From: a virus
Lineage: Duplodnaviria > Heunggongvirae > Uroviricota > Caudoviricetes
DNA length: 11,602 nucleotides
Virus record (IMG/VR): IMGVR_UViG_2778261227_000016
Span: 1-11,602 of that record
Direction: 5' to 3' (one strand)
Position 1 is the stretch's first letter. The number at the start of each line of letters is the position of its first letter. The notes below the pieces were generated by a model. The model did not search any database. It was not told the origin of the DNA and worked only from the letters and a program-made list of their open reading frames with translations. Positions 1 to 11,602 of this stretch are shown piece by piece. The position numbers and the translations under genes were made by a program.

Positions 1-516
1 ATGAAATTTAAAAAATGTCTTCTGCCTGTGGCAATGTTAGCGTCATTCACTCTGGCAGGATGCCAGTCAAATGCTGACGATCATGCTGCCGATGTTTATC
101 AAACCGATCAACTGAATACCAAACAAGAAACTAAAACCGTTAATATTATTTCCATTCTTCCCGCAAAAGTTGCCGTAGACAACTCCCAAAATAAACGGAA
201 CGCACAAGCCTTCGGCGCGCTTATTGGCGCAGTCGCTGGCGGTGTTATCGGCCACAACGTCGGGTCTGGCAGCAATTCCGGAACGACGGCAGGTGCAGTT
301 GGCGGCGGAGCTGTAGGCGCGGCAGCGGGTTCTATGGTGAATGATAAAACCTTAGTGGAAGGTGTTTCTTTAACCTATAAGGAAGGCACCAAAGTGTATA
401 CCTCTACCCAGGTGGGTAAAGAGTGCCAGTTTACGACAGGTTTAGCCGTTGTTATTACCACGACGTATAACGAAACGCGTATTCAGCCAAATACTAAATG
501 TCCTGAAAAGAGCTAA
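1..516 (+). CDS. yfgH: Host lipoprotein with glycine-zipper region (YfgH-like)
   Basis: ATG at 1; lipoprotein signal with lipobox LAGC (MKFKKCLLPVAMLASFTLAGC); Gly/Ala-rich glycine-zipper stretch GALIGAVAGGVIGHNVG...GAVGGGAVGAAAG; 171 aa matches the size I recall for E. coli YfgH, and the adjacent same-strand 179-aa gene matches YfgI. Symbol is from recollection, not a search. Confidence 0.55.
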   Translation: MKFKKCLLPVAMLASFTLAGCQSNADDHAADVYQTDQLNTKQETKTVNIISILPAKVAVDNSQNKRNAQAFGALIGAVAGGVIGHNVGSGSNSGTTAGAVGGGAVGAAAGSMVNDKTLVEGVSLTYKEGTKVYTSTQVGKECQFTTGLAVVITTTYNETRIQPNTKCPEKS

Positions 517-531
517 TAATCAGGAGGAGTC

Positions 532-1071
532 ATGAAGAAAGTTTTTCTTTGCGCCATCTTGGCCTCCTTAAGCTATCCGGCTATCGCCTCATCATTGCAG
601 GATCAACTCTCTGCTGTAGCAGAAGCTGAACAGCAAGGTAAAAATGAAGAGCAAAGGCAGCATGACGAATGGGTCGCGGAGCGCAACAGGGAAATCCAGC
701 AAGAGAAGCAACGTCGCGCAAATGCCCAGGCCGCCGCTAACAAAAGAGCGGCAACGGCAGCGGCAAATAAGAAAGCTCGTCAGGATAAACTGGACGCCGA
801 AGCCTCTGCGGACAAAAAACGCGATCAAAGTTATGAAGATGAGCTACGCAGCTTAGAGATTCAGAAACAAAAACTGGCGCTGGCAAAAGAAGAAGCCCGC
901 GTTAAGCGAGAAAACGAATTTATCGATCAGGAACTGAAGCACAAAGCTGCGCAAACCGATGTGGTGCAATCTGAAGCTGACGCCAACAGAAATATGACTG
1001 AAGGCGGTCGCGATCTGATGAAAAGCGTGGGCAAAGCAGAAGAGAACAAATCGGACAGCTGGTTTAATTAA
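532..1071 (+). CDS. yfgI: Host secreted charged/coiled-coil protein (YfgI-like)
   Basis: ATG at 532 preceded by AGGAGG (521-526); N-terminal signal peptide MKKVFLCAILASLSYPAIA; K/E/Q/A-rich low-complexity body; 179 aa, 15 bp downstream of the yfgH-like gene on the same strand, as in the E. coli yfgH-yfgI pair (recollection). Confidence 0.5.
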   Translation: MKKVFLCAILASLSYPAIASSLQDQLSAVAEAEQQGKNEEQRQHDEWVAERNREIQQEKQRRANAQAAANKRAATAAANKKARQDKLDAEASADKKRDQSYEDELRSLEIQKQKLALAKEEARVKRENEFIDQELKHKAAQTDVVQSEADANRNMTEGGRDLMKSVGKAEENKSDSWFN

Positions 1072-1110
1072 TCGATGTTAGTAACTTCAAGCCTATGATT
1101 CTTGAAGATA

Positions 1111-1145
1111 AAAAACCCTCTGTAGTAACAGAGGGTTTTGTTCAT
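1111..1145 (+). terminator. Rho-independent terminator after the yfgI-like gene
   Basis: Perfect 7-bp stem CCCTCTG (1116-1122) / CAGAGGG (1129-1135), loop TAGTAA, followed by TTTTGTTCATTC; an A-run on the 5-prime side makes it potentially bidirectional. Confidence 0.7.
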
Positions 1146-1172
1146 TCATAGTGCAGGGATTAAAATCATTCC

Positions 1173-1209
1173 CACTCAATTATTTACGGATACCATAACC
1201 AATTGAGTG
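1173..1209. repeat. 9-bp perfect inverted repeat CACTCAATT / AATTGAGTG with 19-bp spacer in the host-prophage junction
   Basis: CACTCAATT at 1173-1181 and its reverse complement AATTGAGTG at 1201-1209, between the host terminator and the spanin stop codons; candidate att-arm or recombinase-binding element. Confidence 0.3.
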
Positions 1210-1290
1210 ATAACATTTTTAAAAAGATGAATTTTTCCCGTACCGTTTTATATACCGTCACCGGAAATCAGTACCATGAAAAATGCCATG

Positions 1291-1773
1291 CTATCTGTTC
1301 ATGGTGTCGTACTGTTTTTCGCAGACTCTTCCGGCTTCGGCTGCCCGGTCAGCATACTCTGCCAGTTGTCTGTTTCTCTCGAGAGATTTGCTGAGCACGT
1401 CGGCAAGCAAAACTCCGGTGTCTGCGGCTGACGACCCAGCGCCGACAATGGCGTTATAGTGCCTGAGCTGCTCACGGATGGCAACGAGCTGTTGCTGCAA
1501 CCGGCCAGCGCGAGCGGCAGCATCAAGAGCATCATTGCGCGCCTGGTCGATCCTCTGCTGCGCTTCACGTTCATTGATCGCTTTCTCCTGTTCGTAGTGC
1601 TGACGAACTATCTCATCTTCGGTTTTGCGGTCTTCTTTCGCCTGTGCATACCCGGCATCGTACTGACGACTGCCGTGTACACTCCAGGCAACAACTCCTG
1701 ATATGGCCAGAACAGCAAGCGCCGCCATTATAATCAACTGTTTACGGTATGCTTTTACGAATGCCCAGATCAT
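1291..1773 (-). CDS. Rz-like inner-membrane spanin (i-spanin)
   Basis: 160 aa; N-terminal TM helix ([18 protein letters not shown]) then a charged coiled-coil-like periplasmic region ([50 protein letters not shown]); ATG at 1773 overlaps the endolysin stop as ATGA (1773-1770); contains an embedded lipoprotein ORF in another frame. Confidence 0.75.
1299..1574 (-). CDS. Rz1-like outer-membrane lipoprotein spanin (o-spanin), embedded in the Rz-like gene
   Basis: ATG at 1574 with AGGAGA about 8 nt upstream on the minus strand; lipobox LAGC after a hydrophobic run ([13 protein letters not shown]); Pro/Ser-rich mature region; lies wholly inside the i-spanin gene in a different frame, the classic embedded Rz/Rz1 architecture. 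Confidence 0.7.
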   Translation of the reverse strand: MNVKRSRGSTRRAMMLLMLPLALAGCSNSSLPSVSSSGTITPLSALGRQPQTPEFCLPTCSANLSRETDNWQSMLTGQPKPEESAKNSTTP

Positions 1774-2399
1774 ACAGCCAGCACCTTACTGGCAGTGACG
1801 TACCGCGAGCGCCGGTCGTCGATGCCATTCCGGCCACCATTGATAATCAGAGTTACACGTGCAATATCTCCGGGATACTTCATGCAGCCTTTGCTGGAGA
1901 AGAACCACGCCGCGCTACGAGCCGCGTATTCGTCCTGCGTCAACAGCTCAGGATTCTCCAGCAGGTCCACTTTTAGGCCGTTTCCGCAGTCACGATAGTT
2001 ATTCAAACCGGTAATCTGGATAAGCCCGCGCCCACGGTAATTCCAGCCATCGCCGGGAGCATTGTTACCCATGCGTTTGCTGTATACCAGATTTGCGATC
2101 GCGCGCTGGCGCTCAAGTGGCAATGGTGGTTCACCAGCACGGCGACCAAGTGCATTAGCCTGCACCTGAGTGAGACGCCCAGCCCGAACGAAGTTAGCCA
2201 GTCCGCTGACACTGTAGTTGAAATTCTCCTGCAACCTGGTGAAACCACCAGACTCATGCCCGACCTGAGCAATAAACATTGCCTGATCTTCTGCTTTGCT
2301 GATACCAAACTCTTTCATCGCAGAAGTTATATGCGAGAACCAGCGTGCGGCCAGCGCCTCGCTAATACCAGCAGCTCGCTGGAATTGTTTAATCTCCAT
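1770..2399 (-). CDS. Endolysin, glycoside hydrolase family 19 (chitinase-like) type
   Basis: Start placed at the internal ATG 2399-2397 ([11 protein letters not shown]...) with GAGG Shine-Dalgarno just upstream; the 77-residue upstream extension in the ORF track is rejected. Contains the GH19-like motif [10 protein letters not shown] and [12 protein letters not shown]; about 209 aa; sits between holin-like genes and the spanins. Confidence 0.8.
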
Positions 2400-2697
2400 G
2401 TTTAGACCTCGATACTTTGAAAATTTGAACGACGTTACCGCGCGTTTTAATAACCGCAGCGAGCATGACAGCGTTGATAATGACCTCAGATAAATCCACA
2501 GCCATTGGCGTGCGTAACCAGATTGCATAGACGACACGAACAGGAATACTTGCCGCAGCAACAATAAGGAAATAAGCAAGCCACCCTCCCCATCTTCGAT
2601 GTTGAGAGCCGTTACGCCGGAATGTGACAACGCGAATTGCTATGCCAGTACAAATGACTGCATTGGTGATAAGCAAAAAAAACTCATGCGTTACCAT
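2389..2697 (-). CDS. Small membrane protein in the lysis cassette (second holin or antiholin candidate)
   Basis: 102 aa; ATG at 2697 with GGGAGA upstream; two or three hydrophobic helices ([16 protein letters not shown]; [23 protein letters not shown]); its 3-prime end overlaps the endolysin start by 11 nt. Confidence 0.5.
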
Positions 2698-3088
2698 CGT
2701 CTTTTCTCCCCGGAATTAACTCGCGTGGATTATCGGAACGGTGATAGAGCCATATACCAATACGCACAGCAACAATTGCTGACACGAATGCGCCAGCTGA
2801 GAAAACAATCCCTTTTTCAAAAGAGTCCTGCGTGATGGTAGGGATCAGGCTGGCTATGCCGATAAGAATTGATGCTGCTGGTTTATAAAAAAGAAGGCCG
2901 CAGAGAAAGCTAAGCATCGACAAGAGTACACGACGACGAATAGGATACTCTACCGCAGAGGTAACAAAAATCACCGCCCCAGCCAAAGCCCCCAAAGCAA
3001 CCTCAGGAGGAACTCCTGCTATCACCGCCGCCAGAGAACTCATGCTAAGCCACTGATTTAAAGTTTCACTGGTTAGTTGAGCTGACAT
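2684..3088 (-). CDS. Holin-like multi-pass membrane protein
   Basis: ORF-track start at 3097 is GTG; I prefer the in-frame ATG at 3088-3086 (MSAQLTSE...) with GGTGGA about 7 nt upstream. About 134 aa with 3-4 hydrophobic helices and a charged C-terminal tail ([18 protein letters not shown]); first gene of the lysis cluster. Confidence 0.5.
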   Translation of the reverse strand: MSAQLTSETLNQWLSMSSLAAVIAGVPPEVALGALAGAVIFVTSAVEYPIRRRVLLSMLSFLCGLLFYKPAASILIGIASLIPTITQDSFEKGIVFSAGAFVSAIVAVRIGIWLYHRSDNPRELIPGRKDDGNA

Positions 3089-3192
3089 GTTTTCCACCGT
3101 TTACTGTGCATAAAGACCCCCATTAGTTGGTGATCACATCATACACAATAAACCATATATGGTTAAACCTGACTAAGATTGCTCTTAACGAA

Positions 3193-3209
3193 ATTACCCG
3201 AAAGGTGAT
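3193..3209. promoter_or_regulatory. Dyad motif copy a: ATTACC-cgaaa-GGTGAT (candidate operator)
   Basis: In the divergent intergenic region between the holin-like gene and the acyltransferase gene, 38 nt upstream of the acyltransferase ATG; shares both half-sites with copies at 6703, 7083 and 8122. Confidence 0.4.
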
Positions 3210-3246
3210 ATCATTGACGTATCATATGATTTTGTGAAAAAAAATT

Positions 3247-4302
3247 ATGCTAGAAGAGAAAAAAAGCCACGCCATTGATTATGTAAAGTGTATTGGTATT
3301 GTTCTTGTTATATTTGGTCATTACCCAAATACAATTATCAATATACTAAAGCCATACATGTATCACATGCCTCTATTTTTCTTCTTGGGTGGGATTCTTT
3401 TTAATACAAAAAAAGGAAGTATAAAGCACTATAAAAACTTAGCAATTAAATATCTACTATACATAATTATGTCGTATGTTTTTTTGGGATTGACTGTTAA
3501 GTTAATGCATTATTTGTTTGAAACTCAAGACAAATTAATTTACGTTAACAATCTTTATGATTCTGTGATGTTTGCACTGAAAAGCAATTTTCACAACAAT
3601 CCGTTATTTATGGTTGGATGGTTTTTATTGAGCTATATGCTCGTTCTTGTAGTTGCATATCCATTTTACAAAATAATTGAGACGTATTTAAACGAGACGA
3701 CAGCGAAAGTTTTTTCTTTTACGATTGGACTCGCTATTGGATACGTGGCGATTACATATGTATCACCAATGTACAAAGAAAGCAAGATGTTCTATTTTAA
3801 CACTCTATGTCAGGTGATGGTTGGTTTGTCATTCTTCATGATCGGCTACGCCGCCAAAAATGTGATATGGAAATTTCTAAATCCATATACTACATTTACC
3901 TTGTTTTTATCCGTTATTTTCTTTCGTCAGTCTGGATTAATCACGAATTTATATATGTCATGGAGCACTTACGCAGATGGTTTTGTCATGAGCCTAGTTG
4001 GTGCGTTAATTGGAATTTATATAATATTTTTCTTTGCCGACCTGTTTTCAAAAGCTGGCGACTATAAATTAATGCGTATGGTTGGCAGTGAAAGTAAGGC
4101 TATAATGACGTTTCATATGTTAAGTTTCACGATAGTTGACATTATTTTCTCGCTACTAGGTTTCTATACAGTTGATAAAAAGCAGATACTCAATCACTTT
4201 ACATCAGCTTATTCCCTTCCTTTGAATATATTAATCGCAATATTCCTGTCTATTTTATTAGGGAAAGCATTAAGGAAGTTATCTAAAGGCGTATACGCAT
4301 GA
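3247..4302 (+). CDS. Acyltransferase family 3-like integral membrane protein (candidate O-antigen/LPS O-acetyltransferase; AT-rich accessory gene)
   Basis: 351 aa, about 10 hydrophobic helices; N-terminal motif DYVKCIGIVLVIFGHY resembles the conserved first-helix Asp/Arg...His motif of acyltransferase-3 (Oac/OafA-type) enzymes; strongly AT-rich (17 of 60 G+C in 3301-3360); opposite strand to and directly beside the tailspike gene. No obvious Shine-Dalgarno before the ATG. Confidence 0.5.
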   Translation: MLEEKKSHAIDYVKCIGIVLVIFGHYPNTIINILKPYMYHMPLFFFLGGILFNTKKGSIKHYKNLAIKYLLYIIMSYVFLGLTVKLMHYLFETQDKLIYVNNLYDSVMFALKSNFHNNPLFMVGWFLLSYMLVLVVAYPFYKIIETYLNETTAKVFSFTIGLAIGYVAITYVSPMYKESKMFYFNTLCQVMVGLSFFMIGYAAKNVIWKFLNPYTTFTLFLSVIFFRQSGLITNLYMSWSTYADGFVMSLVGALIGIYIIFFFADLFSKAGDYKLMRMVGSESKAIMTFHMLSFTIVDIIFSLLGFYTVDKKQILNHFTSAYSLPLNILIAIFLSILLGKALRKLSKGVYA

Positions 4303-4320
4303 AGCCCCTTTTGGGGCTTC
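4301..4320. terminator. Stem-loop between the convergent acyltransferase and tailspike genes (bidirectional terminator candidate)
   Basis: Perfect 8-bp stem GAAGCCCC (4301-4308) / GGGGCTTC (4313-4320) with TTTT loop, between stop codons at 4300-4302 (+) and 4329-4331 (-); no long U-tract on either side. Confidence 0.5.
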
Positions 4321-4328
4321 TAAATGAA

Positions 4329-6599
4329 TTACGGAACTCGCGTTAGTACGTTATTATTCCAGTAACATTCACCACTCGCCAGACCGGTAGCTGAAGTAGG
4401 AAGAGTGAGTTTCATTGAGAGGTTAGTCAACTCAATCTTGTCGGTGTCATAAGACCCAAGCCGCAGTCTGTTCGAGCTTAACAATCTTGTGCTATCATTT
4501 GAAAACGAAAAAGAGGTACTATTTATCCTTACATTACCAATTGTTGTTGCAGACGCACCACTTGGAAATCCTCCATTAAAATTATCAAAAATATCATTCA
4601 GAGATCCTGATACTGAAACTCCAGAAACACCGTTCGTCACAGTTACAATTTGCTGTTGTGCATCACAAGAATCTGTTAATAAATTGCCAATAAGAGTACC
4701 TGCTGTAATTGAAATGTGGTTACCTATAATCTTGTTATCACCATGTGTTATATCAACGATATTGGTGCACGCCCCGATATGCTGGATATTGATATGGTTG
4801 CCACGTAACTCACCACTTGGTTGAGCGTTATTGGGTCCTTTAAGGTTAACATCGACACGGCATACGCCATTAAACATTATGTTGATTTTGTTGTTGTACC
4901 CTCTTCTTACTCTCAGTGGGCTGTCAATCGTGCCGTAGTTGGCAGAATTCATTGCGGTGAGCTCAACATCAATATCCGCTGAGCGATCCAGCAATACCAA
5001 CCCCTCGTCTAACTCCTTACCCGACACTGATCCCAACCCGCAGTTTAGCGCGTAGATATCTTTGAAACTACCGAACGAAATATCTGTAGCATAGCTTGGT
5101 GTCACCATTTCTCTGACGTTTCTTATCACTCGATCACAGTTCTCAGCGGAACAATTATAGTAGTGAACGTCTGTTGCAGTAGTCCATTCGCCAACACCAT
5201 TTTCACGACCAACAAATTCAAATGCTGATGAGCAACTTTCAACTTTTGCACCTTCAATTCTTATATTATCAACGCCGTATTCCCAGTTAAACGCCTTCCC
5301 GCCTGCTGAGTATTGTGATGACGAACCTCTGCGGCAGTTACGTATCACGCCACCAATCGACAAAACGTTCCTGCATTTACTACCGCTGATACCATTTTCA
5401 CCTTGCACATCAGACGTCGGATAACCAATATTCCCCCCATCTATATGTGGATTAATGAAACGTACATTTTCAACAGGATTACTATAAGTCCCCAGCACAG
5501 CAATCACTCCACCAATAGTTGATTTGGCAGTTAGCGTAATAAATGATGGCTTCAGCCATTCCATAGTCACATTACTAGGAACAACGATGTTATCAGAAAT
5601 TGGATATACCATTTCTTCAGTTATGATAACGCGAACACCAAATTTTGATGCTGCATTAACCGCCCCCTGAAGTCCATACAAAGTATCCGTATCAGATGGC
5701 GTAACACCAAAATCCTCTGGTGTTATATCGAATGCAGAGCGAACCCACTTCAGAGCACCACTACCAGCGACAACACCTCCATCATCTAAATCAGAGGTCG
5801 CCTTTGCGATAAACTCACCGCCACCCAACAAGGATCCAGAATGCCAGCCTTTCAACAAAATCCTCTGGCCTTCAAACTCCGGAAAAATAGAACGCAACTC
5901 ATTGAAACTATTACATTGCCCAATGCGCTTGAAACCATCAGGCTTTGCTAACTCTATAAGAACGTCTGAGGCTGACCCAGAAGGTGGTGTTATAACAATA
6001 ACGTTACCACTGTTATCAAAAGCTGGCATTTTATTGCGTCTGCCATCAACGTCAGGAAGTTGGTTTATTGGCTCAGGTACGCGAAGAGTTCTGCTAAAAT
6101 TTCCTGATGCGAGGCTATCCACATAATTTTTTGTTGCAGCATCCTGCGGTCTTACTGGATCACGTAAATTTCTGATGTAATTATTCATCGCATCATAATA
6201 GTTTGCAGCAAACGATGGCTTACGAAGCGCCAGTCTGAACCAATTACGAGTTTGCTGAATCAGCATAGTTAGTTTATCAAATGCATCCTCATGCACCTCA
6301 GCAAAAAACTTACCCTGGTTACGCAGATCTGTCTCCTGCGTAACCAGGAGCTCTCGAGAGATAGATATCTGATGACCGTTTGCCAATGCCTTCGACAAAA
6401 TTACATTGCCACCATTATATCCTCCAGCCCCGGTAACAGAGTAATCAGTATCCAGTTTCAACACCGTGATGTTTTCATTGAGGTCAGCAATCTGAACGGT
6501 CAAGTCTGACTTTTTGAAAATTCTGAATGTATACGGAAATGATGTCGTTACGCCGTTACCAGTGTATTCGTTGTGATCAACTTCGGTTGAGACCGTCAT
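4329..6599 (-). CDS. Tailspike / tail fiber protein with beta-helix-type receptor-binding (depolymerase-like) body
   Basis: 756 aa; ATG at 6599 with GGAGA about 8 nt upstream; N-terminus MTVSTEVDHNEYTGNGVTTSFPYTFRIFKKSDLTVQ... resembles the conserved particle-attachment N-domain of podophage tailspikes (recollection); central and C-terminal region rich in Gly/Asn/Ser/Thr/Val repeats typical of right-handed beta-helix folds; the 3-prime third is visibly more AT-rich than the 5-prime part. Confidence 0.8.
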   Translation of the reverse strand: MTVSTEVDHNEYTGNGVTTSFPYTFRIFKKSDLTVQIADLNENITVLKLDTDYSVTGAGGYNGGNVILSKALANGHQISISRELLVTQETDLRNQGKFFAEVHEDAFDKLTMLIQQTRNWFRLALRKPSFAANYYDAMNNYIRNLRDPVRPQDAATKNYVDSLASGNFSRTLRVPEPINQLPDVDGRRNKMPAFDNSGNVIVITPPSGSASDVLIELAKPDGFKRIGQCNSFNELRSIFPEFEGQRILLKGWHSGSLLGGGEFIAKATSDLDDGGVVAGSGALKWVRSAFDITPEDFGVTPSDTDTLYGLQGAVNAASKFGVRVIITEEMVYPISDNIVVPSNVTMEWLKPSFITLTAKSTIGGVIAVLGTYSNPVENVRFINPHIDGGNIGYPTSDVQGENGISGSKCRNVLSIGGVIRNCRRGSSSQYSAGGKAFNWEYGVDNIRIEGAKVESCSSAFEFVGRENGVGEWTTATDVHYYNCSAENCDRVIRNVREMVTPSYATDISFGSFKDIYALNCGLGSVSGKELDEGLVLLDRSADIDVELTAMNSANYGTIDSPLRVRRGYNNKINIMFNGVCRVDVNLKGPNNAQPSGELRGNHINIQHIGACTNIVDITHGDNKIIGNHISITAGTLIGNLLTDSCDAQQQIVTVTNGVSGVSVSGSLNDIFDNFNGGFPSGASATTIGNVRINSTSFSFSNDSTRLLSSNRLRLGSYDTDKIELTNLSMKLTLPTSATGLASGECYWNNNVLTRVP

Positions 6600-6702
6600 G
6601 TTAAATCTCCAGATAGTCGCAGCACCCGTTGCGCCGCATATCCGGTCATTCTATTACCTGAAAAACCACATATGGATAGATAACCCATAAATACGAACAG
6701 AT

Positions 6703-6719
6703 ATTACCTTTCAGGTGAT
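6703..6719. promoter_or_regulatory. Dyad motif copy b: ATTACC-tttca-GGTGAT (candidate operator)
   Basis: In the divergent region between the tailspike start (6599, minus) and the LexA-box promoter of the antirepressor locus; identical half-sites to copy a. Confidence 0.4.
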
Positions 6720-6755
6720 TCGCAAAACGTGCTGGATAGCAAGCAAATTATTTGA

Positions 6756-6775
6756 TACTGTATAAATATACAGTT
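6756..6775 (+). promoter_or_regulatory. LexA (SOS) box overlapping a promoter upstream of the antirepressor locus
   Basis: TACTGTATAAATATACAGTT matches the E. coli LexA consensus TACTGT-(AT)4-ACAGTA: CTGT 6758-6761, an 8-nt A/T-only spacer, ACAG 6770-6773. Overlaps a -35-like TTGATA (6752-6757); the first ATG with a Shine-Dalgarno (GGAGA 6783-6787) is at 6795. Confidence 0.65.
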
Positions 6776-6794
6776 ATTGCATGGAGAAGATAAG

Positions 6795-7052
6795 ATGCAG
6801 CAGTATCACTATCCACTGGAAGACGGATTTACCGAAAGGATTCACACGCCGGGAGGCGTCAGGTCACTAGTGGAGGGATCGCACTTGATGAAATTACTCC
6901 GGGATCTCGATAAGGATGGATTTAATGTCGATGGCCCACTTGCCGAACTGACTGCACTGATTAACTACGTCACCAGCTCACAGATGTCTATGCGGGATCT
7001 GCAAACACATCTCGACTATTGTGCCGAACAATTACGAAAACAAACCAGATAA
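6795..7052 (+). CDS. Small protein paralogous to the C-terminal domain of the downstream antirepressor
   Basis: ORF-track start at 6777 is TTG; I prefer ATG 6795 (MQQYHYPLEDG...) with GGAGA upstream; 85 aa. Residues HTPGGVRSLVEGSHLMKLLRDLDKDGFNVDGPLAELTALINYVTSSQMSMRDLQTHLDYC align by eye with the C-terminus of the 7365-8051 product (HSPSGVLGLTENSLLMNLLNQLQDDGHDVSGAAAELTTMFCYIVGVSKCLRDIQTHAEYI), about 40 percent identity. Confidence 0.5.
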   Translation: MQQYHYPLEDGFTERIHTPGGVRSLVEGSHLMKLLRDLDKDGFNVDGPLAELTALINYVTSSQMSMRDLQTHLDYCAEQLRKQTR

Positions 7053-7082
7053 GGTTTGCAATTACCAAATGGAGTGCTTATA

Positions 7083-7099
7083 TTTACCTTTGCGGTAAA
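7083..7099. promoter_or_regulatory. Dyad motif copy c: TTTACC-tttgc-GGTAAA (candidate operator) overlapping a promoter-like element
   Basis: Perfect palindrome arms ATTTACC / GGTAAAT; immediately downstream of -35-like TTGCAA (7055-7060) and -10-like TATATT (7079-7084), i.e. at the -10/+1 position typical of repressor operators. Confidence 0.4.
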
Positions 7100-7191
7100 T
7101 TTACATCACACTCCTCTTGTGCCATAGTAATCGGGCACTGGCAAAATCCAGTGCCGGGATTGGCGTCCCGAGTTACTACAGAGGCACATAT

Positions 7192-7211
7192 GCCGCATAA
7201 GCGGTTTTTTT
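7192..7211 (+). terminator. Weak intrinsic terminator / attenuator-like hairpin in the antirepressor leader
   Basis: Short stem GCCGC (7192-7196) / GCGG(T) (7201-7205), loop ATAA, followed by a run of seven T (7205-7211); lies in a roughly 310-nt untranslated leader that also holds an 8-bp-stem hairpin (7134-7155) and a GAAA-tetraloop hairpin (about 7251-7266). Confidence 0.3.
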
Positions 7212-7364
7212 ATGTGTAAAGCGCACCTATTCTATGGTGGGCTGTGTGGGGGCACCGAAAGGTGCGCCGGGTCCTTTGTAGCCGGTTACGCCAACCCTGC
7301 ACAGTTCACCACCAACCGATTGGCGTCGGTAGTGGTGATTAACCTAACTACAAAGGTGATCGCT

Positions 7365-8051
7365 ATGACTGCTAACGTAACCCCATCTGTTTTTCATTTT
7401 GAATCAGAAGCAACCATTCGAGCCATTGTTATTGATGGAAATCCTTGGTTTGTTGCCAAAGACGTTATTAAAGCTCTTCAACTGACAAACCCCACTATGT
7501 CAATAAAATCTCTTGATGATGATGAAAGGGCTAAATTTAACTTAGGCCGTCAAGGCGAAACCAATATTATCAACGAGTCAGGCCTCTACACACTGATCCT
7601 CCGCTGCCGCGATGCGGTGACACCAGGCACTACCCCCTACCGCTTTCGTAAATGGGTTACAGGTGAGGTTCTTCCTCAGATCCGCCGCACCGGAAGTTAC
7701 ATTAAAAACTCGCTCCCGCAGGAAGAACGCATAAAGATGGTTGCCGACCAGGTAGCCAGCGCCACAGCATCAGCAGTGATGCAGGCAATGAAGGTAGAGA
7801 ACAAAACCTACAGCGCCCCACTGAAGCCCGGCTACCGCAGCCTGATTCATTCGCCGTCTGGTGTTCTCGGCCTGACGGAGAACTCACTGCTGATGAATCT
7901 GCTGAACCAGTTACAGGACGACGGGCACGACGTATCGGGCGCGGCGGCGGAGCTGACCACCATGTTCTGCTACATCGTCGGTGTGAGCAAATGCCTGCGT
8001 GATATCCAGACACACGCGGAGTACATCAACGACAAAGCAGGGTTCTTCTGA
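7365..8051 (+). CDS. Phage antirepressor with N-terminal Bro-N/AntA domain
   Basis: Start placed at ATG 7365 (MTANVTPSVF...) with AAGGTG upstream; the Cys/Gly-rich upstream extension in the ORF track (from 7212, directly after a T-run) is rejected. Bro-N signature IRAIVIDGNPWFVAKDVIKAL...ESGLYTLILRCRDAVTPGTTPYRFRKWVTGEVLPQI; 228 aa. Confidence 0.8.
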   Translation: MTANVTPSVFHFESEATIRAIVIDGNPWFVAKDVIKALQLTNPTMSIKSLDDDERAKFNLGRQGETNIINESGLYTLILRCRDAVTPGTTPYRFRKWVTGEVLPQIRRTGSYIKNSLPQEERIKMVADQVASATASAVMQAMKVENKTYSAPLKPGYRSLIHSPSGVLGLTENSLLMNLLNQLQDDGHDVSGAAAELTTMFCYIVGVSKCLRDIQTHAEYINDKAGFF

Positions 8052-8121
8052 CGGGCGGCGGCACAGGGATGTGCCTTTAAATAATTCTGTACAGATTGCA
8101 GACTGGGGGTGAATAGCGTAC

Positions 8122-8180: not shown

Positions 8181-8507
8181 ATGACAAAACTTGGATTCGT
8201 GATGAGAGGTCCGGTAAGAAGCGGAACTCATGCAAAGCGTAGCAAGAGTCGTATTTTTACTGGTAAGGTTGTAGCACGTAAATCAGCTATTGGCTCGTTC
8301 AATAGTGAAAATGCGGCATTGCGCCATATTTTTATCAGCACAAAGCCAAGAGCATCCGCTGATGTGCATACAATGACTATTCCTATCACAAAGAATATAA
8401 AGCGGATAAAAAAGCTCTCATCTGCAGAATCAAAAGAGATATCTTTCCGCCAGCTTAACTCATTAGAAACGCATATGAAGGAAGAGGAATTCGATGTTTT
8501 TGAGTGA
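8181..8507 (+). CDS. Small basic protein with acidic C-terminal tail; putative antitoxin/partner of the downstream gene
   Basis: 108 aa; ATG 8181 with GGAG (8170-8173); Lys/Arg-rich N-terminal half (KRSKSRIFTGKVVARKS), acidic C-terminus HMKEEEFDVFE; its stop overlaps the next ORF start by 14 nt (translational coupling); AT-rich. Confidence 0.45.
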   Translation: MTKLGFVMRGPVRSGTHAKRSKSRIFTGKVVARKSAIGSFNSENAALRHIFISTKPRASADVHTMTIPITKNIKRIKKLSSAESKEISFRQLNSLETHMKEEEFDVFE

Positions 8508-9006
8508 GTATAGCGGGAAGGTTATACCTACTGGTGAGTTTAAAACTGATGACTTTCTGATTTCGCTAAAAGATGCTTTTAAACAACACTGGCGTCATGG
8601 TCATCATCCTGATCTGGGAAAAGATACTCTTTTTGAAAGACCAGACGAAGTATTAGGTTTCCATCTCAGAAAGGTTCATGTCAATATTGGTGAATATGCA
8701 TCATATTCATACTCATGTACTGAACAGTGTTGGGATGAGTGGTCATATGGATTGATTGATGAACAAGGAAATTACAGGCCAAAACCAACCAGTAACGCAT
8801 ATCTCATATATGCAGTCAATGAAATAAGAGATGCAGCCTTACTAGCTTATTGGGACCCGCCCGCACACACCAAAGCTAACGCAAAAGTTTGGATGGATTC
8901 CGTATTGAATTTCACAAAATTATTTCATGAACGAACGAATACAGCTCCACTTAGTAGAAATGTTTATCCGTGGGATTATTCGTACAAATCCAAAAAGCCT
9001 GCATAG
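8494..9006 (+). CDS. Putative toxin, YafO-like (type II toxin family) by motif resemblance; function unverified
   Basis: 170 aa; ATG 8494 with GAGGAA upstream; motifs GFHLRKVHVNI, AYLIYAV and LLAYWDPPAHTKANAKVWMDSVLNFTKLF resemble the HIHL / LVY / LLxxILxPxxHxxA pattern I recall for YafO-family ribosome-dependent mRNA interferases. No HMM search was possible. AT-rich (20 of 60 G+C in 8521-8580). Confidence 0.4.
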   Translation: MFLSEYSGKVIPTGEFKTDDFLISLKDAFKQHWRHGHHPDLGKDTLFERPDEVLGFHLRKVHVNIGEYASYSYSCTEQCWDEWSYGLIDEQGNYRPKPTSNAYLIYAVNEIRDAALLAYWDPPAHTKANAKVWMDSVLNFTKLFHERTNTAPLSRNVYPWDYSYKSKKPA

Positions 9007-9087: not shown

Positions 9088-9249
9088 ATGAAAAAAGCAT
9101 TTGCTGCACTGTTCGTTTTGTTGTCTCTGGTAGCTTCAACTCAGGCCTTTGCCGGTCGTTGTCAGCACGACAGCGATACTGCCGCTGACGGCTCCCGCTG
9201 CGGTGGGCGTTCTGCGGATTCCCGCCCGGGTGGCGGTGGCATTCGTTAA
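9088..9249 (+). CDS. Small secreted peptide (signal peptide plus about 31-aa Cys/Gly-rich mature peptide)
   Basis: Start placed at ATG 9088 (MKKAFAALFVLLSLVASTQAFA-GRCQHDSDTAADGSRCGGRSADSRPGGGGIR); typical Sec signal peptide with AxA cleavage site; two Cys in the mature part; the ORF-track start at 9016 lacks a Shine-Dalgarno and would put 24 residues before the signal peptide. Confidence 0.4.
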   Translation: MKKAFAALFVLLSLVASTQAFAGRCQHDSDTAADGSRCGGRSADSRPGGGGIR

Positions 9250-9272
9250 AAACAAGGCCGAGAAAGCGGCCT
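9246..9272 (-). terminator. Rho-independent terminator ending the minus-strand virion/membrane-protein unit (possibly bidirectional)
   Basis: 6-bp GC-rich stem AGGCCG (9255-9260) / CGGCCT (9267-9272), loop AGAAAG; on the minus strand the hairpin is followed by TGTTTTTAA (complement of 9246-9254); lies between the + peptide stop (9247-9249) and the minus-strand 98-aa gene stop (9281-9283). Confidence 0.55.
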
Positions 9273-9280
9273 GTGACATG

Positions 9281-9577
9281 TCACGTTCCTTTTCTGAATG
9301 ATAGCCGTTCGAAAAATGATGACATTCCACCGCAGACAATAGCAAAGATGATCCCACCAAAGAAGAGAAGGCCAGCCTGCCACCACTCCCACCGCCATAC
9401 ATCCACAGCGCCAATCATACCAACAATCGCTCCAACAAACGGAATATAACTCACGACAAAAGCAACGGGAGCTGCAATTACCCAGTGCAACCCCCACCAT
9501 GATTCAAGCCCAGCCATAATTGCTGCCAACTGAAAAAGACCAACGACGATATAAACAATGAATCCTATAGCTTGCAT
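9281..9577 (-). CDS. Small three-helix membrane protein of unknown function
   Basis: 98 aa; ATG 9577 with AGGTGA about 5 nt upstream; hydrophobic helices (IGFIVYIVVGLFQLAAIMAGL; VIAAPVAFVVSYIPFVGAIVGMIGAV; AGLLFFGGIIFAIVCGGM), Trp-rich loop WRWEWWQ; the overlapping ORF-track entries 9136-9414 and 9246-9500 are rejected. Confidence 0.55.
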   Translation of the reverse strand: MQAIGFIVYIVVGLFQLAAIMAGLESWWGLHWVIAAPVAFVVSYIPFVGAIVGMIGAVDVWRWEWWQAGLLFFGGIIFAIVCGGMSSFFERLSFRKGT

Positions 9578-9763: not shown

Positions 9764-9772
9764 AACACTTCC

Positions 9773-11602
9773 TTATTGCGGAGTGACATCCTGAGGTCGC
9801 CACCAGTATGTCTGGTTAAACTCTTTCTTCGAACGTTGCTCCATTTTACGCAAATATCCTGGTGAAAAATACTCCTGCATCTGGTTAAAGATCATGTGAT
9901 CGAGAGCCGCCTTCAAGTACCAGAGATTCGCACCAGGCATCAAACCTTTCCCCAGCTTCACCAGATCACCACCAGTCTGCTCACTCTTCCCTTCCACAGC
10001 ATTTAACGGTATGCCCTGAGCAATCTTCACTACGTCATCAACCAGACCAGCTACCGGGCCAAGCATCGACGCCAGCGCGCCGCTTCCGTACCTAGTGTGA
10101 TCTGACAATAAAAAGTCACCATAAAGGCCAAGACCACCACCTTTCAGTAGAGCACCAAGCCAGAATTTTGCGGCATCTTCTCCTGTCATCTCTCGAGGAT
10201 TACGACCAGACGCAAGGTCGTTAAGTTGTTGCGACAAAGCGCCAAGAATGGTCGTACTGGCAATAAACGTCGCAATATATGCCGCACGCCCACCAGCAGA
10301 CGGCATACCCATAGCGCGTGACCAGTGACGCATAACAACCGAGATAGGGAACGATTTAAACAGGAAAACACTTCTCGTTAATTCACCTTTCCATGTTCCA
10401 CGCTGAAGACCAGACCCTACGAACATCTGTTCACGTGCGCCCGGTGTAATAACAGCCATATCAACTTCTTCAGTTACGGCACCGAGCAGTTTACGCATTG
10501 CCTCAAATTTCACACGTTCAGGCTCACCAAGATGTTTAACTGCTGAATCAGGGATACGCATAATGCTTTCCGGTGTCAGCATCGTATTATTACCGTTCCC
10601 CCAGTCCTCCTGTTGCGCCAGCTTCCATACGCTCCAGTCTGTGTCAGTAATCCCTTTGCTTTTCAGGATACGAAAATCAGAGTCATCGAGGCTACGAAGG
10701 TCTGGTGTCCGTGACACTACTTCTCCTAGGCTTCCCATCATAGTTACGCCATAGGCGCGCTTGTGCGCATCTGACCATGCTGTAAGCCCACTGGCACGCA
10801 TTACCGCCGTTGCCGCCCAACGAGACACAGACGGCCCCATATTATCCATCGCCCAGCGGTTAACGCTGCCAAGTAGAGATTCCATCGCCAGACCAGCTCG
10901 GCGCGCCCGCGCAAGCTCAGTACGGTTCGTTGGGTCCATAGCTTCAAGCTGGTTGCGGAATAACTGGTTCATTGGAAGGTTGGTAACCTTCGCAGACAGA
11001 TACATGGTTCCAAGATCAGAGAACGATGACAGCAACGCGGATCCGAGTCTGCTGGCAACCAGCCAGTTGCGGATATTGTCAGACCATCGCGCGATGTGCG
11101 GATTCGCTACAGGCTGTGTCTTTCCGGAAATAAAGTTGTACAGGTTCTCTGTTTTGTTCGCCAGCCGCTCGACGCTACCGGTTTTACTCGGGTTAGCTGT
11201 TGCCGTTTCAGCCTTCACCTGATCAAGAAGGGAACGGAAAACATGATCGGGGTTTGGGCCATATGTTTCCACCAGAGCAATATCTTTACTGATCCCTTCC
11301 AAGTGACCGACCATGATTTCCCATAGAGAGCGATCGCCATAAAGTTGCTGATATTGCAGATAGGAATCTGCATCTTTGAAATGTATCTGTCGTGATGCAT
11401 TACCACGGTTAGAACGTGCGCCGGAAATTCGCATTCCGGTATCAGTAAGCTTATTCAGCCCACCAGTAGCGATCGTGTTATAAGCCTCTCCAAGAAATGC
11501 AGACAACTCAGCATCGTTCATCAGTTGTGAACCGCCCCGGGAATCCTGGAGACTAAACTTCCTGAGAAAGAGGTAAACAGGATGACTAAAAATACTCGTT
11601 TT
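9773..11602 (-). CDS. Large phage virion/ejection-type structural protein, partial (N-terminus beyond window end)
   Basis: The ORF-track entry starts at ATG 11521, but the frame stays open upstream to 11602 (hand translation ...KTSIFSHPVYLFLRKFSLQDSRGGSQL-MNDAELSAF...), so the gene probably starts outside the window; at least 609 codons; no enzymatic motif recognised; Gly-rich C-terminal segment (LKGGGLGLYGDFLLSDHTRYGSGALASMLGPVAGLVDD); same strand as and directly upstream of two small membrane-protein genes. Confidence 0.6.
   Translation of the reverse strand, partial: KTSIFSHPVYLFLRKFSLQDSRGGSQLMNDAELSAFLGEAYNTIATGGLNKLTDTGMRISGARSNRGNASRQIHFKDADSYLQYQQLYGDRSLWEIMVGHLEGISKDIALVETYGPNPDHVFRSLLDQVKAETATANPSKTGSVERLANKTENLYNFISGKTQPVANPHIARWSDNIRNWLVASRLGSALLSSFSDLGTMYLSAKVTNLPMNQLFRNQLEAMDPTNRTELARARRAGLAMESLLGSVNRWAMDNMGPSVSRWAATAVMRASGLTAWSDAHKRAYGVTMMGSLGEVVSRTPDLRSLDDSDFRILKSKGITDTDWSVWKLAQQEDWGNGNNTMLTPESIMRIPDSAVKHLGEPERVKFEAMRKLLGAVTEEVDMAVITPGAREQMFVGSGLQRGTWKGELTRSVFLFKSFPISVVMRHWSRAMGMPSAGGRAAYIATFIASTTILGALSQQLNDLASGRNPREMTGEDAAKFWLGALLKGGGLGLYGDFLLSDHTRYGSGALASMLGPVAGLVDDVVKIAQGIPLNAVEGKSEQTGGDLVKLGKGLMPGANLWYLKAALDHMIFNQMQEYFSPGYLRKMEQRSKKEFNQTYWWRPQDVTPQ

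What the first reader, a model, noticed from the sequence alone, without database searches (positions are those of the whole stretch)
3098..4320. AT-rich acyltransferase-3 gene between tailspike and lysis genes on the opposite strand: candidate serotype-converting O-acetylase
Seen in sequence: a 351-aa polytopic membrane protein with an acyltransferase-3-like N-terminal motif; very low G+C (17 of 60 in 3301-3360) compared with neighbours; flanked by a strong stem-loop (4301-4320) and its own upstream region carrying dyad copy a. Established knowledge: temperate phages such as Sf6 (oac) and phiV10 carry O-antigen acetyltransferases next to the tailspike gene that modify the receptor and block superinfection. 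Inference: this gene alters host LPS or another surface glycan.
Basis: partly seen in the sequence, partly recalled or inferred. Interest (0 to 1): 0.5.

Follow-up and report, generated by a model that had tools for sequence, protein, structure and literature searches.

The report
Prophage sugar-acetylase linked to its tailspike
This is an intact membrane acyltransferase gene in an E. coli prophage that always travels with the receptor-binding part of the phage tailspike, so it most likely modifies the cell-surface sugar the phage binds and blocks re-infection; this is a known strategy carried out here by an uncharacterised branch of the enzyme family.

Summary

It is not detectably related to phiV10 or Sf6 Oac, to any PHROG, or to any sequenced phage. 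It belongs to a separate AT3 branch with no characterised member, in which Lys replaces Arg at both CoA-binding motifs while His25 is invariant.

The main new result is linkage to the tailspike. Window 3262-5942 (gene, hairpin and tailspike receptor-binding domain) is 98% identical to a P22-like prophage whose backbone is otherwise unrelated. Over 300 locus pairs, acyltransferase identity tracks the receptor-binding domain (median 84% against 34%) and not the tail type.

The gene is under purifying selection (dN/dS about 0.05). It most likely masks the tailspike's glycan receptor, probably O-antigen. The acceptor sugar and host serogroup remain unknown, and no function was tested. The upstream dyad belongs to the phage backbone, not to this gene. 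Verdict: a new member of a known kind, of moderate interest.

The parts
3247..4302 (+). AT3-only membrane acyltransferase gene (351 aa, 32.5% G+C, 26 Lys and 3 Arg)
3098..3246 (.). Divergent intergenic region between the holin-like gene (-) and the acyltransferase gene (+); 3098-3215 is phiV10-type backbone
   Evidence: blastn to phiV10 ends at window 3215. Alignment with phiV10, L018 and phiv142-3. Matches to E. coli prophages and phage Tyrion cover only the first ~113 bases of the finding.
3151..3164 (.). Perfect 14-bp palindrome AACCATATATGGTT ('dyad copy a'), a backbone element and candidate operator
   Evidence: Conserved upstream of phiV10 oac and in phiv142-3, which lacks an acyltransferase gene. 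It overlaps the -35 hexamer and spacer of a minus-strand promoter-like site (3166 to 3138) that faces the lysis genes.
3185..3214 (+). Sigma-70 promoter-like site TTAACG-18-TATCAT with TG extended -10, 33 nt upstream of the ATG; candidate promoter of the gene
   Evidence: Consensus scan, 9 of 12 matches. This is a pattern match only; function is not shown.
4301..4320 (.). 8-bp G+C-rich hairpin in the 26-nt gap between the convergent acyltransferase and tailspike genes; overlaps the TGA stop codon
   Evidence: Fold z = -5.2 and -5.0 on the two strands. No T-run. Identical in the P22-like prophage, so it is part of the shared cassette.
4329..5957 (-). Tailspike receptor-binding part (aa 215-756), functional partner of the acyltransferase
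   Evidence: 97% aa identity to aa 116-657 of the P22-type tailspike in L009. Absent from 5,426 complete E. coli genomes. Best match in a sequenced phage is 40% identity.
5958..6599 (-). Tailspike N-terminal anchor (aa 1-214), phiV10-type backbone
   Evidence: 68% identity to the phiV10 tail fibre N-terminus. Multiple PHROG tail-protein matches to the N-terminus. The anchor length agrees with the ~205 aa used in PMC10408124.
3262..5942 (.). 2,681-bp mobile cassette (acyltransferase from about codon 6, hairpin, tailspike receptor-binding domain) shared with P22-like prophages
   Evidence: blastn 98.2% identity to L009 and L010, with unrelated flanks.

Best explanation
The gene encodes a stand-alone (AT3-only) transmembrane acyltransferase that the prophage expresses in the lysogen. 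By analogy with characterised AT3 enzymes, acyl-CoA (probably acetyl-CoA) enters a pore formed by the ten helices from the cytoplasm. Lys14 in TMH1 and the lysines at the cytoplasmic end of TMH3 (K60, K63, K68) would hold the CoA phosphates, and invariant His25 at the outer end of TMH1 would catalyse transfer to a hydroxyl of a surface polysaccharide. The acceptor is most likely the glycan that the adjacent tailspike binds and cleaves, probably the host O-antigen. Acylation would then make the lysogen a poor receptor for this phage and for others with the same receptor-binding domain (seroconversion and superinfection exclusion). The gene and the receptor-binding domain form one 2.7-kb cassette that recombines into phiV10-like, P22-like and siphovirus-type tails. 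Shown here: family membership, fold, residue conservation, purifying selection, linkage to the tailspike and co-transfer with it. Inferred: donor, acceptor, expression in the lysogen, and the exclusion phenotype.

For: It is functional. dN/dS is 0.05. The exact protein lies in 32 blocks of the assembly index, and 24 contigs carrying it were read.

It is coupled to the tailspike. Ten of 11 contexts from six genera have a tailspike next to the gene or within a few genes. In 17 of 21 independent IMG/VR family members, a convergent 616-915-aa ORF with a recognisable tailspike anchor follows directly. Window 3262-5942 is 98.2% identical to P22-like prophages that share nothing else with the window. 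Over 300 pairs, the 19 pairs with homologous receptor-binding domains have median acyltransferase identity 83.6% (minimum 48%). The other 281 pairs have median 33.7% (maximum 52%). Tail or anchor type has no effect (33.7% against 34.2%, p = 0.72).

There is precedent. The same slot in phiV10 holds oac, which acetylates O157 antigen and blocks phiV10 binding (PMC11854483). Sf6 Oac and OafB act the same way (PMC9558356). PMC10408124 notes modification genes behind the receptor-binding protein in these two genera.
Against: There is no biochemical or phenotypic evidence. There is no detectable homology to any characterised O-antigen acetylase: phiV10 Oac gives E 1.8, tblastn against 50,697 phage records finds nothing, and PHROGs and NCBIfam give no match. 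The literal AT3 motifs R-X10-H and RXXR are not met, because Lys replaces Arg. The tailspike's target is unknown: its domain is absent from typed phages and from complete E. coli genomes, and its weak relatives include Klebsiella 'EPS depolymerases'. Adjacency alone could produce co-transfer without any functional matching. The promoter is only a consensus match, and the scan found no plus-strand candidate upstream of the P22-like copy.
Confidence: 0.68

Rival explanations
1. Same enzyme and same logic, but the acceptor is a capsular or other exopolysaccharide (K-antigen, O-antigen capsule, colanic acid) rather than LPS O-antigen, and the tailspike is a capsule depolymerase.
For: Apart from one 40% match, the receptor-binding domain's sequenced-phage relatives are mostly Klebsiella, Serratia and Erwinia proteins annotated as EPS depolymerase or amsF at 25-40% identity. 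PMC10408124 reports that some Uetakevirus receptor-binding proteins, such as that of phiv142-3, occur across many O-serogroups, which implies receptors other than O-antigen.
Against: In Uetake- and Lederbergviruses the receptor-binding protein normally correlates with the host O-serogroup (PMC10408124). Characterised cargo in this slot is O-antigen-directed. The depolymerase similarities are weak and partial.
Confidence: 0.2
2. The enzyme acylates a glycan unrelated to phage adsorption (enterobacterial common antigen as WecH does, peptidoglycan, or periplasmic glucans as OpgC does). It would benefit the host, for example through lysozyme or serum resistance, and its position next to the tailspike would be only a convenient moron insertion site.
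For: AT3-only enzymes with these acceptors exist (PMC9558356). One family member (L022, Enterobacter cloacae) survives in a decayed prophage remnant with no tailspike, so the gene can be kept without its partner.
Against: Acyltransferase sequence tracks the receptor-binding domain and not the backbone or host genus, which is not expected for a conserved acceptor such as ECA or peptidoglycan. The linkage persists down to about 30% identity across three tail types.
Confidence: 0.07
3. The gene is an inactive passenger. The Arg-to-Lys changes at both CoA-binding motifs would have inactivated it, and it persists only through linkage to the tailspike.
For: The literature calls the TMH1 Arg 'absolutely conserved' and essential and the RXXR motif important (PMC9833829; PMC12423673). 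Neither Arg is present here.
Against: dN/dS is 0.05. There are 23 invariant columns, including His25. Lys14 is itself conserved in 30 of 31 family sequences and 54 of 60 close representatives, and Arg reappears at that position in more distant relatives. Lys is the normal residue at this position in two sister TmAT families. The ORF is intact in every copy examined.
Confidence: 0.03

Closest known systems
phiV10 Oac (PhiV10p26, YP_512280.1), O157-antigen O-acetyltransferase
   Same: Same genome slot (between the holin-like gene and the tailspike), same strand arrangement (convergent with the tailspike), same AT3-only size class (338 against 351 aa), same phage type, and the same upstream backbone sequence including the dyad.
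   Different: No detectable pairwise similarity (BLASTP E 1.8), and it does not match this family's HMM. phiV10 Oac has the canonical R-X10-H and an RANR motif, whereas this protein has K-X10-H and no RXXR. The partner tailspike receptor-binding domains are unrelated.
Sf6 Oac / S. flexneri Oac family (AT3-only seroconverting acetylases of P22-like phages)
   Same: AT3-only enzyme encoded beside the tailspike of a temperate podophage. A 98% copy of the window gene occupies this kind of position in a P22-like prophage. The proposed mechanism, acetylation that blocks the tailspike endoglycosidase, is the one described for Sf6 (PMC9558356).
   Different: tblastn against all phage records, which should include Sf6, gives no match. 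The Arg residues reported as critical in the RXXR motif (PMC9833829) have no Arg counterpart here.
OafA / OafB (Salmonella AT3-SGNH O-antigen acetyltransferases; OafB is encoded by prophage BTP1)
   Same: AT3 membrane domain with the catalytic TMH1 His. Prophage-encoded protection against the phage's own tailspike (PMC9558356; PMC9833829).
   Different: No fused SGNH domain here. Lys replaces Arg14, and Arg71 and Arg74 have no Arg counterparts.
HGSNAT and GWT1 (solved TmAT-fold structures)
   Different: 10-12% sequence identity, eukaryotic, with extra domains and different acceptors. This is a fold-level relationship only.
Epsilon15/phiV10-type seroconversion slot and receptor-binding-domain swapping between Uetake- and Lederbergviruses (PMC10408124)
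   Same: The tailspike junctions at aa 215 (phiV10-type) and aa 116 (P22-type) match the published anchor lengths of about 205 and 124 aa. The paper notes that modification genes can sit behind the receptor-binding protein.
   Different: Here the modification gene and the receptor-binding domain are shown to move as one unit and to co-vary across three tail architectures. I did not find this stated in the papers I read.

Membership tests
Acyltransferase-3 (AT3, Pfam PF01757) / TmAT superfamily | Matches the PF01757 HMM at or above the gathering score | tested here: met
   47.7 bits against cutoff 31, E 1.5e-12, profile positions 2-320 of 326.
Acyltransferase-3 (AT3, Pfam PF01757) / TmAT superfamily | Core 10-TMH TmAT fold | tested here: met
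Acyltransferase-3 (AT3, Pfam PF01757) / TmAT superfamily | Catalytic His at the outer end of TMH1 (His25 in OafB) | tested here: met
   His25 is invariant in 31 of 31 family members and 60 of 60 close representatives.
Acyltransferase-3 (AT3, Pfam PF01757) / TmAT superfamily | TMH1 Arg eleven residues before the His (R-X10-H, or DxxR) | tested here: not met
   The sequence is D11-Y-V-K14...H25. Lys occurs at this position in 30 of 31 family sequences and in 54 of 60 close representatives. The change is conservative, and Lys is usual here in Cas1_AcylT and TraX (PMC12423673).
Acyltransferase-3 (AT3, Pfam PF01757) / TmAT superfamily | RXXR motif on the cytoplasmic face of TMH3 | tested here: not met
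   There is no Arg in residues 58-72; the whole protein has Arg only at 227, 277 and 343. Lys is at 60, 63 and 68, and K68 is Lys or Arg in 28 of 31. Equivalence to RXXR rests on a weak BLASTP alignment to the phiV10 RANR motif.
Acyltransferase-3 (AT3, Pfam PF01757) / TmAT superfamily | TMH2 FxxxxG motif and TMH6 Gly | tested here: met
   F44 and G49 are invariant, and G200 is invariant within helix 182-202.
Phage seroconverting O-antigen O-acetyltransferases (Oac of Sf6 and phiV10) | AT3-only architecture encoded by a temperate phage beside its tailspike | tested here: met
   Single-domain 351-aa protein. phiV10-like prophage context, convergent with the tailspike.
Phage seroconverting O-antigen O-acetyltransferases (Oac of Sf6 and phiV10) | Sequence homology to a characterised Oac | tested here: not met
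   BLASTP against phiV10 Oac gives E 1.8. tblastn against 50,697 phage records gives no match at E <= 1e-3. No PHROG match.
Phage seroconverting O-antigen O-acetyltransferases (Oac of Sf6 and phiV10) | Adds O-acetyl groups to the host O-antigen | not testable with these tools
   Needs NMR or MS of LPS from strains with and without the gene.
Phage seroconverting O-antigen O-acetyltransferases (Oac of Sf6 and phiV10) | Expression blocks adsorption or plating of the cognate phage | not testable with these tools
   Only indirect support: the acyltransferase co-varies with the tailspike receptor-binding domain.

The most novel reading that the evidence does not exclude
This AT3 branch and tailspike receptor-binding domains may form a co-adapted two-gene 'recognise and mask' cassette that moves as a unit between podovirus and siphovirus tails in Enterobacterales. 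If so, the acyltransferase sequence would predict the tailspike's glycan specificity and the reverse. This particular cassette would then mark an E. coli surface-glycan acylation variant and phage receptor type that no typed phage or complete genome yet represents. A further possibility is that the all-lysine CoA site reflects recruitment from a low-G+C donor, or a donor other than acetyl-CoA.
Probability: 0.4. Interest if true: 0.5.

Novelty: new member of a known kind. Interest (0 to 1): 0.38.

Why it matters
If the enzyme works as proposed, lysogens carrying it display a chemically altered O-antigen or capsule. That affects serotyping, vaccine and antibody recognition, and the host range of therapeutic or diagnostic phages that use the same receptor-binding domain. 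The tight co-variation of acyltransferase and receptor-binding domain gives a practical rule for pairing uncharacterised tailspikes with the enzymes that defeat them. It also offers many natural pairs for studying how AT3-only enzymes choose their acceptor, which the AT3 review lists as an open question (PMC9558356). The Lys-for-Arg pattern shows that the Arg described as 'absolutely conserved' in TMH1 is not universal within PF01757.

Tried and rejected
- NCBIfam and PHROGs gave no match for the protein.
- tblastn against all phage records gave no match.
- megablast of the gene and of the tailspike receptor-binding domain against 5,426 complete E. coli genomes found only the 5' backbone stretch or nothing. 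I therefore could not infer the host O-serogroup.
- A sequence search of the PDB gave no match at E <= 10.
- I considered that the dyad was the gene's own operator and rejected this as a gene-specific feature. It is conserved in phiv142-3, which has no acyltransferase gene, and it overlaps a promoter-like site that faces the lysis genes.
- I considered that the hairpin was a canonical intrinsic terminator. This is not supported because there is no T-run.
- I considered that K-X10-H marks an isolated, aberrant clade and rejected it. Lys is common throughout this AT3 branch and alternates with Arg.
- A promoter scan upstream of the P22-like copy found no plus-strand candidate, so how that copy is expressed is unresolved.
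- dN/dS for pairs at or below 62% identity could not be computed because dS was saturated.
- Names for wider clade members were only generic: 'acyltransferase family protein' or 'fucose 4-O-acetylase-like'.

Full report
**Observation.** The window carries an ORF at 3247-4302 on the + strand that encodes 351 aa. Independent gene callers give the same product in six public assemblies. The gene is 32.5% G+C, against 52.4% for the neighbouring lysis genes and 45.2% for the window. Leftward on the minus strand lie two holin-type genes, a GH19 endolysin and an Rz-like spanin (1291-3097). Rightward, converging on the ORF, is a 756-aa tailspike (4329-6599). The 26-nt gap between the two convergent stop codons holds the hairpin GAAGCCCC-TTTT-GGGGCTTC (4301-4320). 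It folds far better than shuffled sequence on both strands (z about -5, 0 of 200 shuffles) but has no T-run, so it is not a textbook intrinsic terminator.

**Genomic setting.** The window is one end of a phiV10/epsilon15-like (Uetakevirus) prophage. Backbone homology to phiV10 covers 1164-3215 and 6066-8062, plus a 62-bp stretch at 9227-9288 and 9770-11528. Window 1-1163 is host DNA: in the assemblies it continues into ppk-ppx-yfgF. A 39.7-kb contig (L006) has the integrase joined at window 1164. In phiV10 the same slot holds oac, which acetylates O157 antigen and blocks phiV10 binding (PMC11854483). TL-2011b (O103 host) and PAS61 (O146 host) carry other acetylases there, and phiv142-3 carries only a small unknown gene. 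The slot is therefore a known site for seroconversion cargo.

**Catalytic motifs.** The literature defines AT3 by an R-X10-H motif in TMH1 and an RXXR motif in TMH3 (PMC9833829). The TmAT paper adds DxxR, FxxxxG and a TMH6 Gly. His25, F44xxxxG49 and G200 are invariant here. The TMH1 Arg is Lys14 (30 of 31 family members). No Arg occurs near the start of TMH3, where K60, K63 and K68 sit instead. The whole protein has 26 Lys and 3 Arg, in keeping with its A+T-rich coding. An exhaustive profile search found 94 cluster representatives at E <= 1e-30 and 13,944 at E <= 1e-3. In that set Lys is the rule in this branch (54 of 60 closest) and alternates with Arg further out, while H25, H40, F44, G49, W125, G200 and H290 persist. 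I read this as a tolerated Lys/Arg exchange at the CoA-phosphate sites, not as inactivation. dN/dS against a 78% homologue is 0.05, although dS is close to saturation.

**Relationship to known phage acetylases.** There is none detectable. BLASTP against phiV10 Oac gives E 1.8. tblastn against 50,697 phage records gives nothing. PHROGs and NCBIfam give nothing. phiV10, TL-2011b and PAS61 acetylases do not match the family HMM. Named relatives carry only generic labels and come from Enterobacter, Hafnia, Proteus, Photorhabdus, Mixta, Kosakonia, Vibrio, Oligella and Paraburkholderia. All the family genes I measured have 30-34% G+C whatever the host.

**Linkage to the tailspike.** A 98% copy (P0001) lies in P22-like prophages beside dacD, next to a tailspike with a P22 head-binding N-terminus. 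The two tailspikes are 97% identical from aa 215 (window) and aa 116 (P22-like) to the C-terminus, and unrelated before that. At the DNA level window 3262-5942 (2,681 bp) is 98.2% identical, with unrelated flanks. This stretch comprises the gene from about codon 6, the hairpin and the receptor-binding domain. The junctions agree with published anchor lengths for the two genera (PMC10408124).

**How general the linkage is.** Ten of 11 contexts retrieved by exact-protein look-up have a tailspike next to the gene or within a few genes. These tailspikes come with phiV10-type, P22-type or siphovirus-type (tape-measure plus Tail_spike_N) tail modules. In an independent IMG/VR sample, 17 of 21 family members are followed at once by a convergent 616-915-aa ORF with one of these three anchors. 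Over 300 pairs from 25 loci, the 19 pairs with homologous receptor-binding domains have median acyltransferase identity 83.6% (minimum 48%). The other 281 pairs have median 33.7% (maximum 52%). Anchor type makes no difference (33.7% against 34.2%, p = 0.72). The pairs are not independent, so the Mann-Whitney p of 2e-13 is indicative only. Cross-architecture sharing recurs in several lineages, for example L035 with L039 and L018 with L014.

**Interpretation.** The enzyme most likely acylates the glycan that its partner tailspike recognises, which would protect the lysogen from phages bearing that receptor-binding domain, as shown for phiV10 Oac, Sf6 Oac and OafB. O-antigen is the most likely acceptor, because these phage genera are typically O-antigen-specific. 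A capsule or other exopolysaccharide cannot be excluded. The receptor-binding domain has no close typed relative (40% identity at best), and its weak relatives include EPS depolymerases. Simple physical linkage could explain co-transfer of neighbouring genes. However, the adjacency persists down to about 30% identity and across three tail types, which argues for selection on the pairing. Expression is inferred from orientation and from one promoter-like site at 3185-3214.

**The dyad.** AACCATATATGGTT (3151-3164) is real and has two degenerate copies in other intergenic regions. It lies in the phiV10-type backbone part of the intergenic region. It is conserved in phiV10 and in phiv142-3, which has no acyltransferase gene, and it overlaps a minus-strand promoter-like site that faces the lysis genes. 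It is therefore not evidence about regulation of this gene in particular.

**Verdict.** The gene is a new member of a known kind (a phage seroconversion acyltransferase) from an uncharacterised AT3 branch. The added finding is that it is part of a mobile cassette containing the tailspike receptor-binding domain.

Noticed in passing
window 7135-7316 (+): Rfam gathering-level matches to isrK (7135-7211, 74 bits) and C4 antisense RNA (7230-7316, 79.5 bits), directly 5' of the Bro-N/anti-repressor gene. This looks like a P1/P7-type c4-ant immunity module. The long ORF starting at 7212 overlaps these RNAs and is probably over-extended; gene callers start Ant near 7365.
   Followed up: partly
window 3151-3164, 6664-6677, 7043-7056: Three copies of a dyad (AACCATATATGGTT and two variants with 2 mismatches each), each in an intergenic or promoter region: lysis genes/acyltransferase, tailspike/orf 6777, and about 80 nt upstream of isrK. 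They are conserved in phiV10-like phages and may be operators of one phage regulator. Support is 3 sites against 0.69 expected, with 6 of 200 shuffles reaching 3.
   Followed up: partly
window 1-1163; L020 (TL-2011b NC_019445) 301-1371: Window 1-1163 is host chromosome (yfgH/yfgI-like lipoprotein genes, downstream of ppk-ppx-yfgF in the assemblies), and the prophage junction is near 1164. The TL-2011b phage record includes the same two genes and annotates the first as 'DNA methyltransferase', which looks like host flank carried in the record and mis-annotated.
   Followed up: partly
L013 430-6762: The 78% homologue sits in a three-gene glycan-modification cluster next to an IS-truncated tailspike: AT3-only (351 aa), a SASA/sialate-O-acetylesterase-like protein (393 aa) and an AT3-SGNH protein (605 aa). 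This may be a multi-enzyme seroconversion island.
   Followed up: no
L022 6001-7038 (Enterobacter cloacae CP162154.1): A 31% family member, read on 22 contigs, lies in a decayed prophage remnant (a holin gene but no tailspike) on the chromosome. The acyltransferase can apparently be kept after its phage is lost.
   Followed up: no
window 8181-9006 (+): ORF 8494-9006 (170 aa, PHROG 1651) has a sub-threshold YafO-toxin match (19.7 bits against cutoff 25), and its TL-2011b homologue is annotated as a YafO-family toxin. The overlapping upstream ORF 8181-8507 could be its partner.
   Followed up: no
window 6314-6348: A perfect 13-bp inverted repeat, CCTGGTTACGCAG-N9-CTGCGTAACCAGG, lies inside the coding sequence of the tailspike anchor domain. 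Its purpose is unknown.
   Followed up: no
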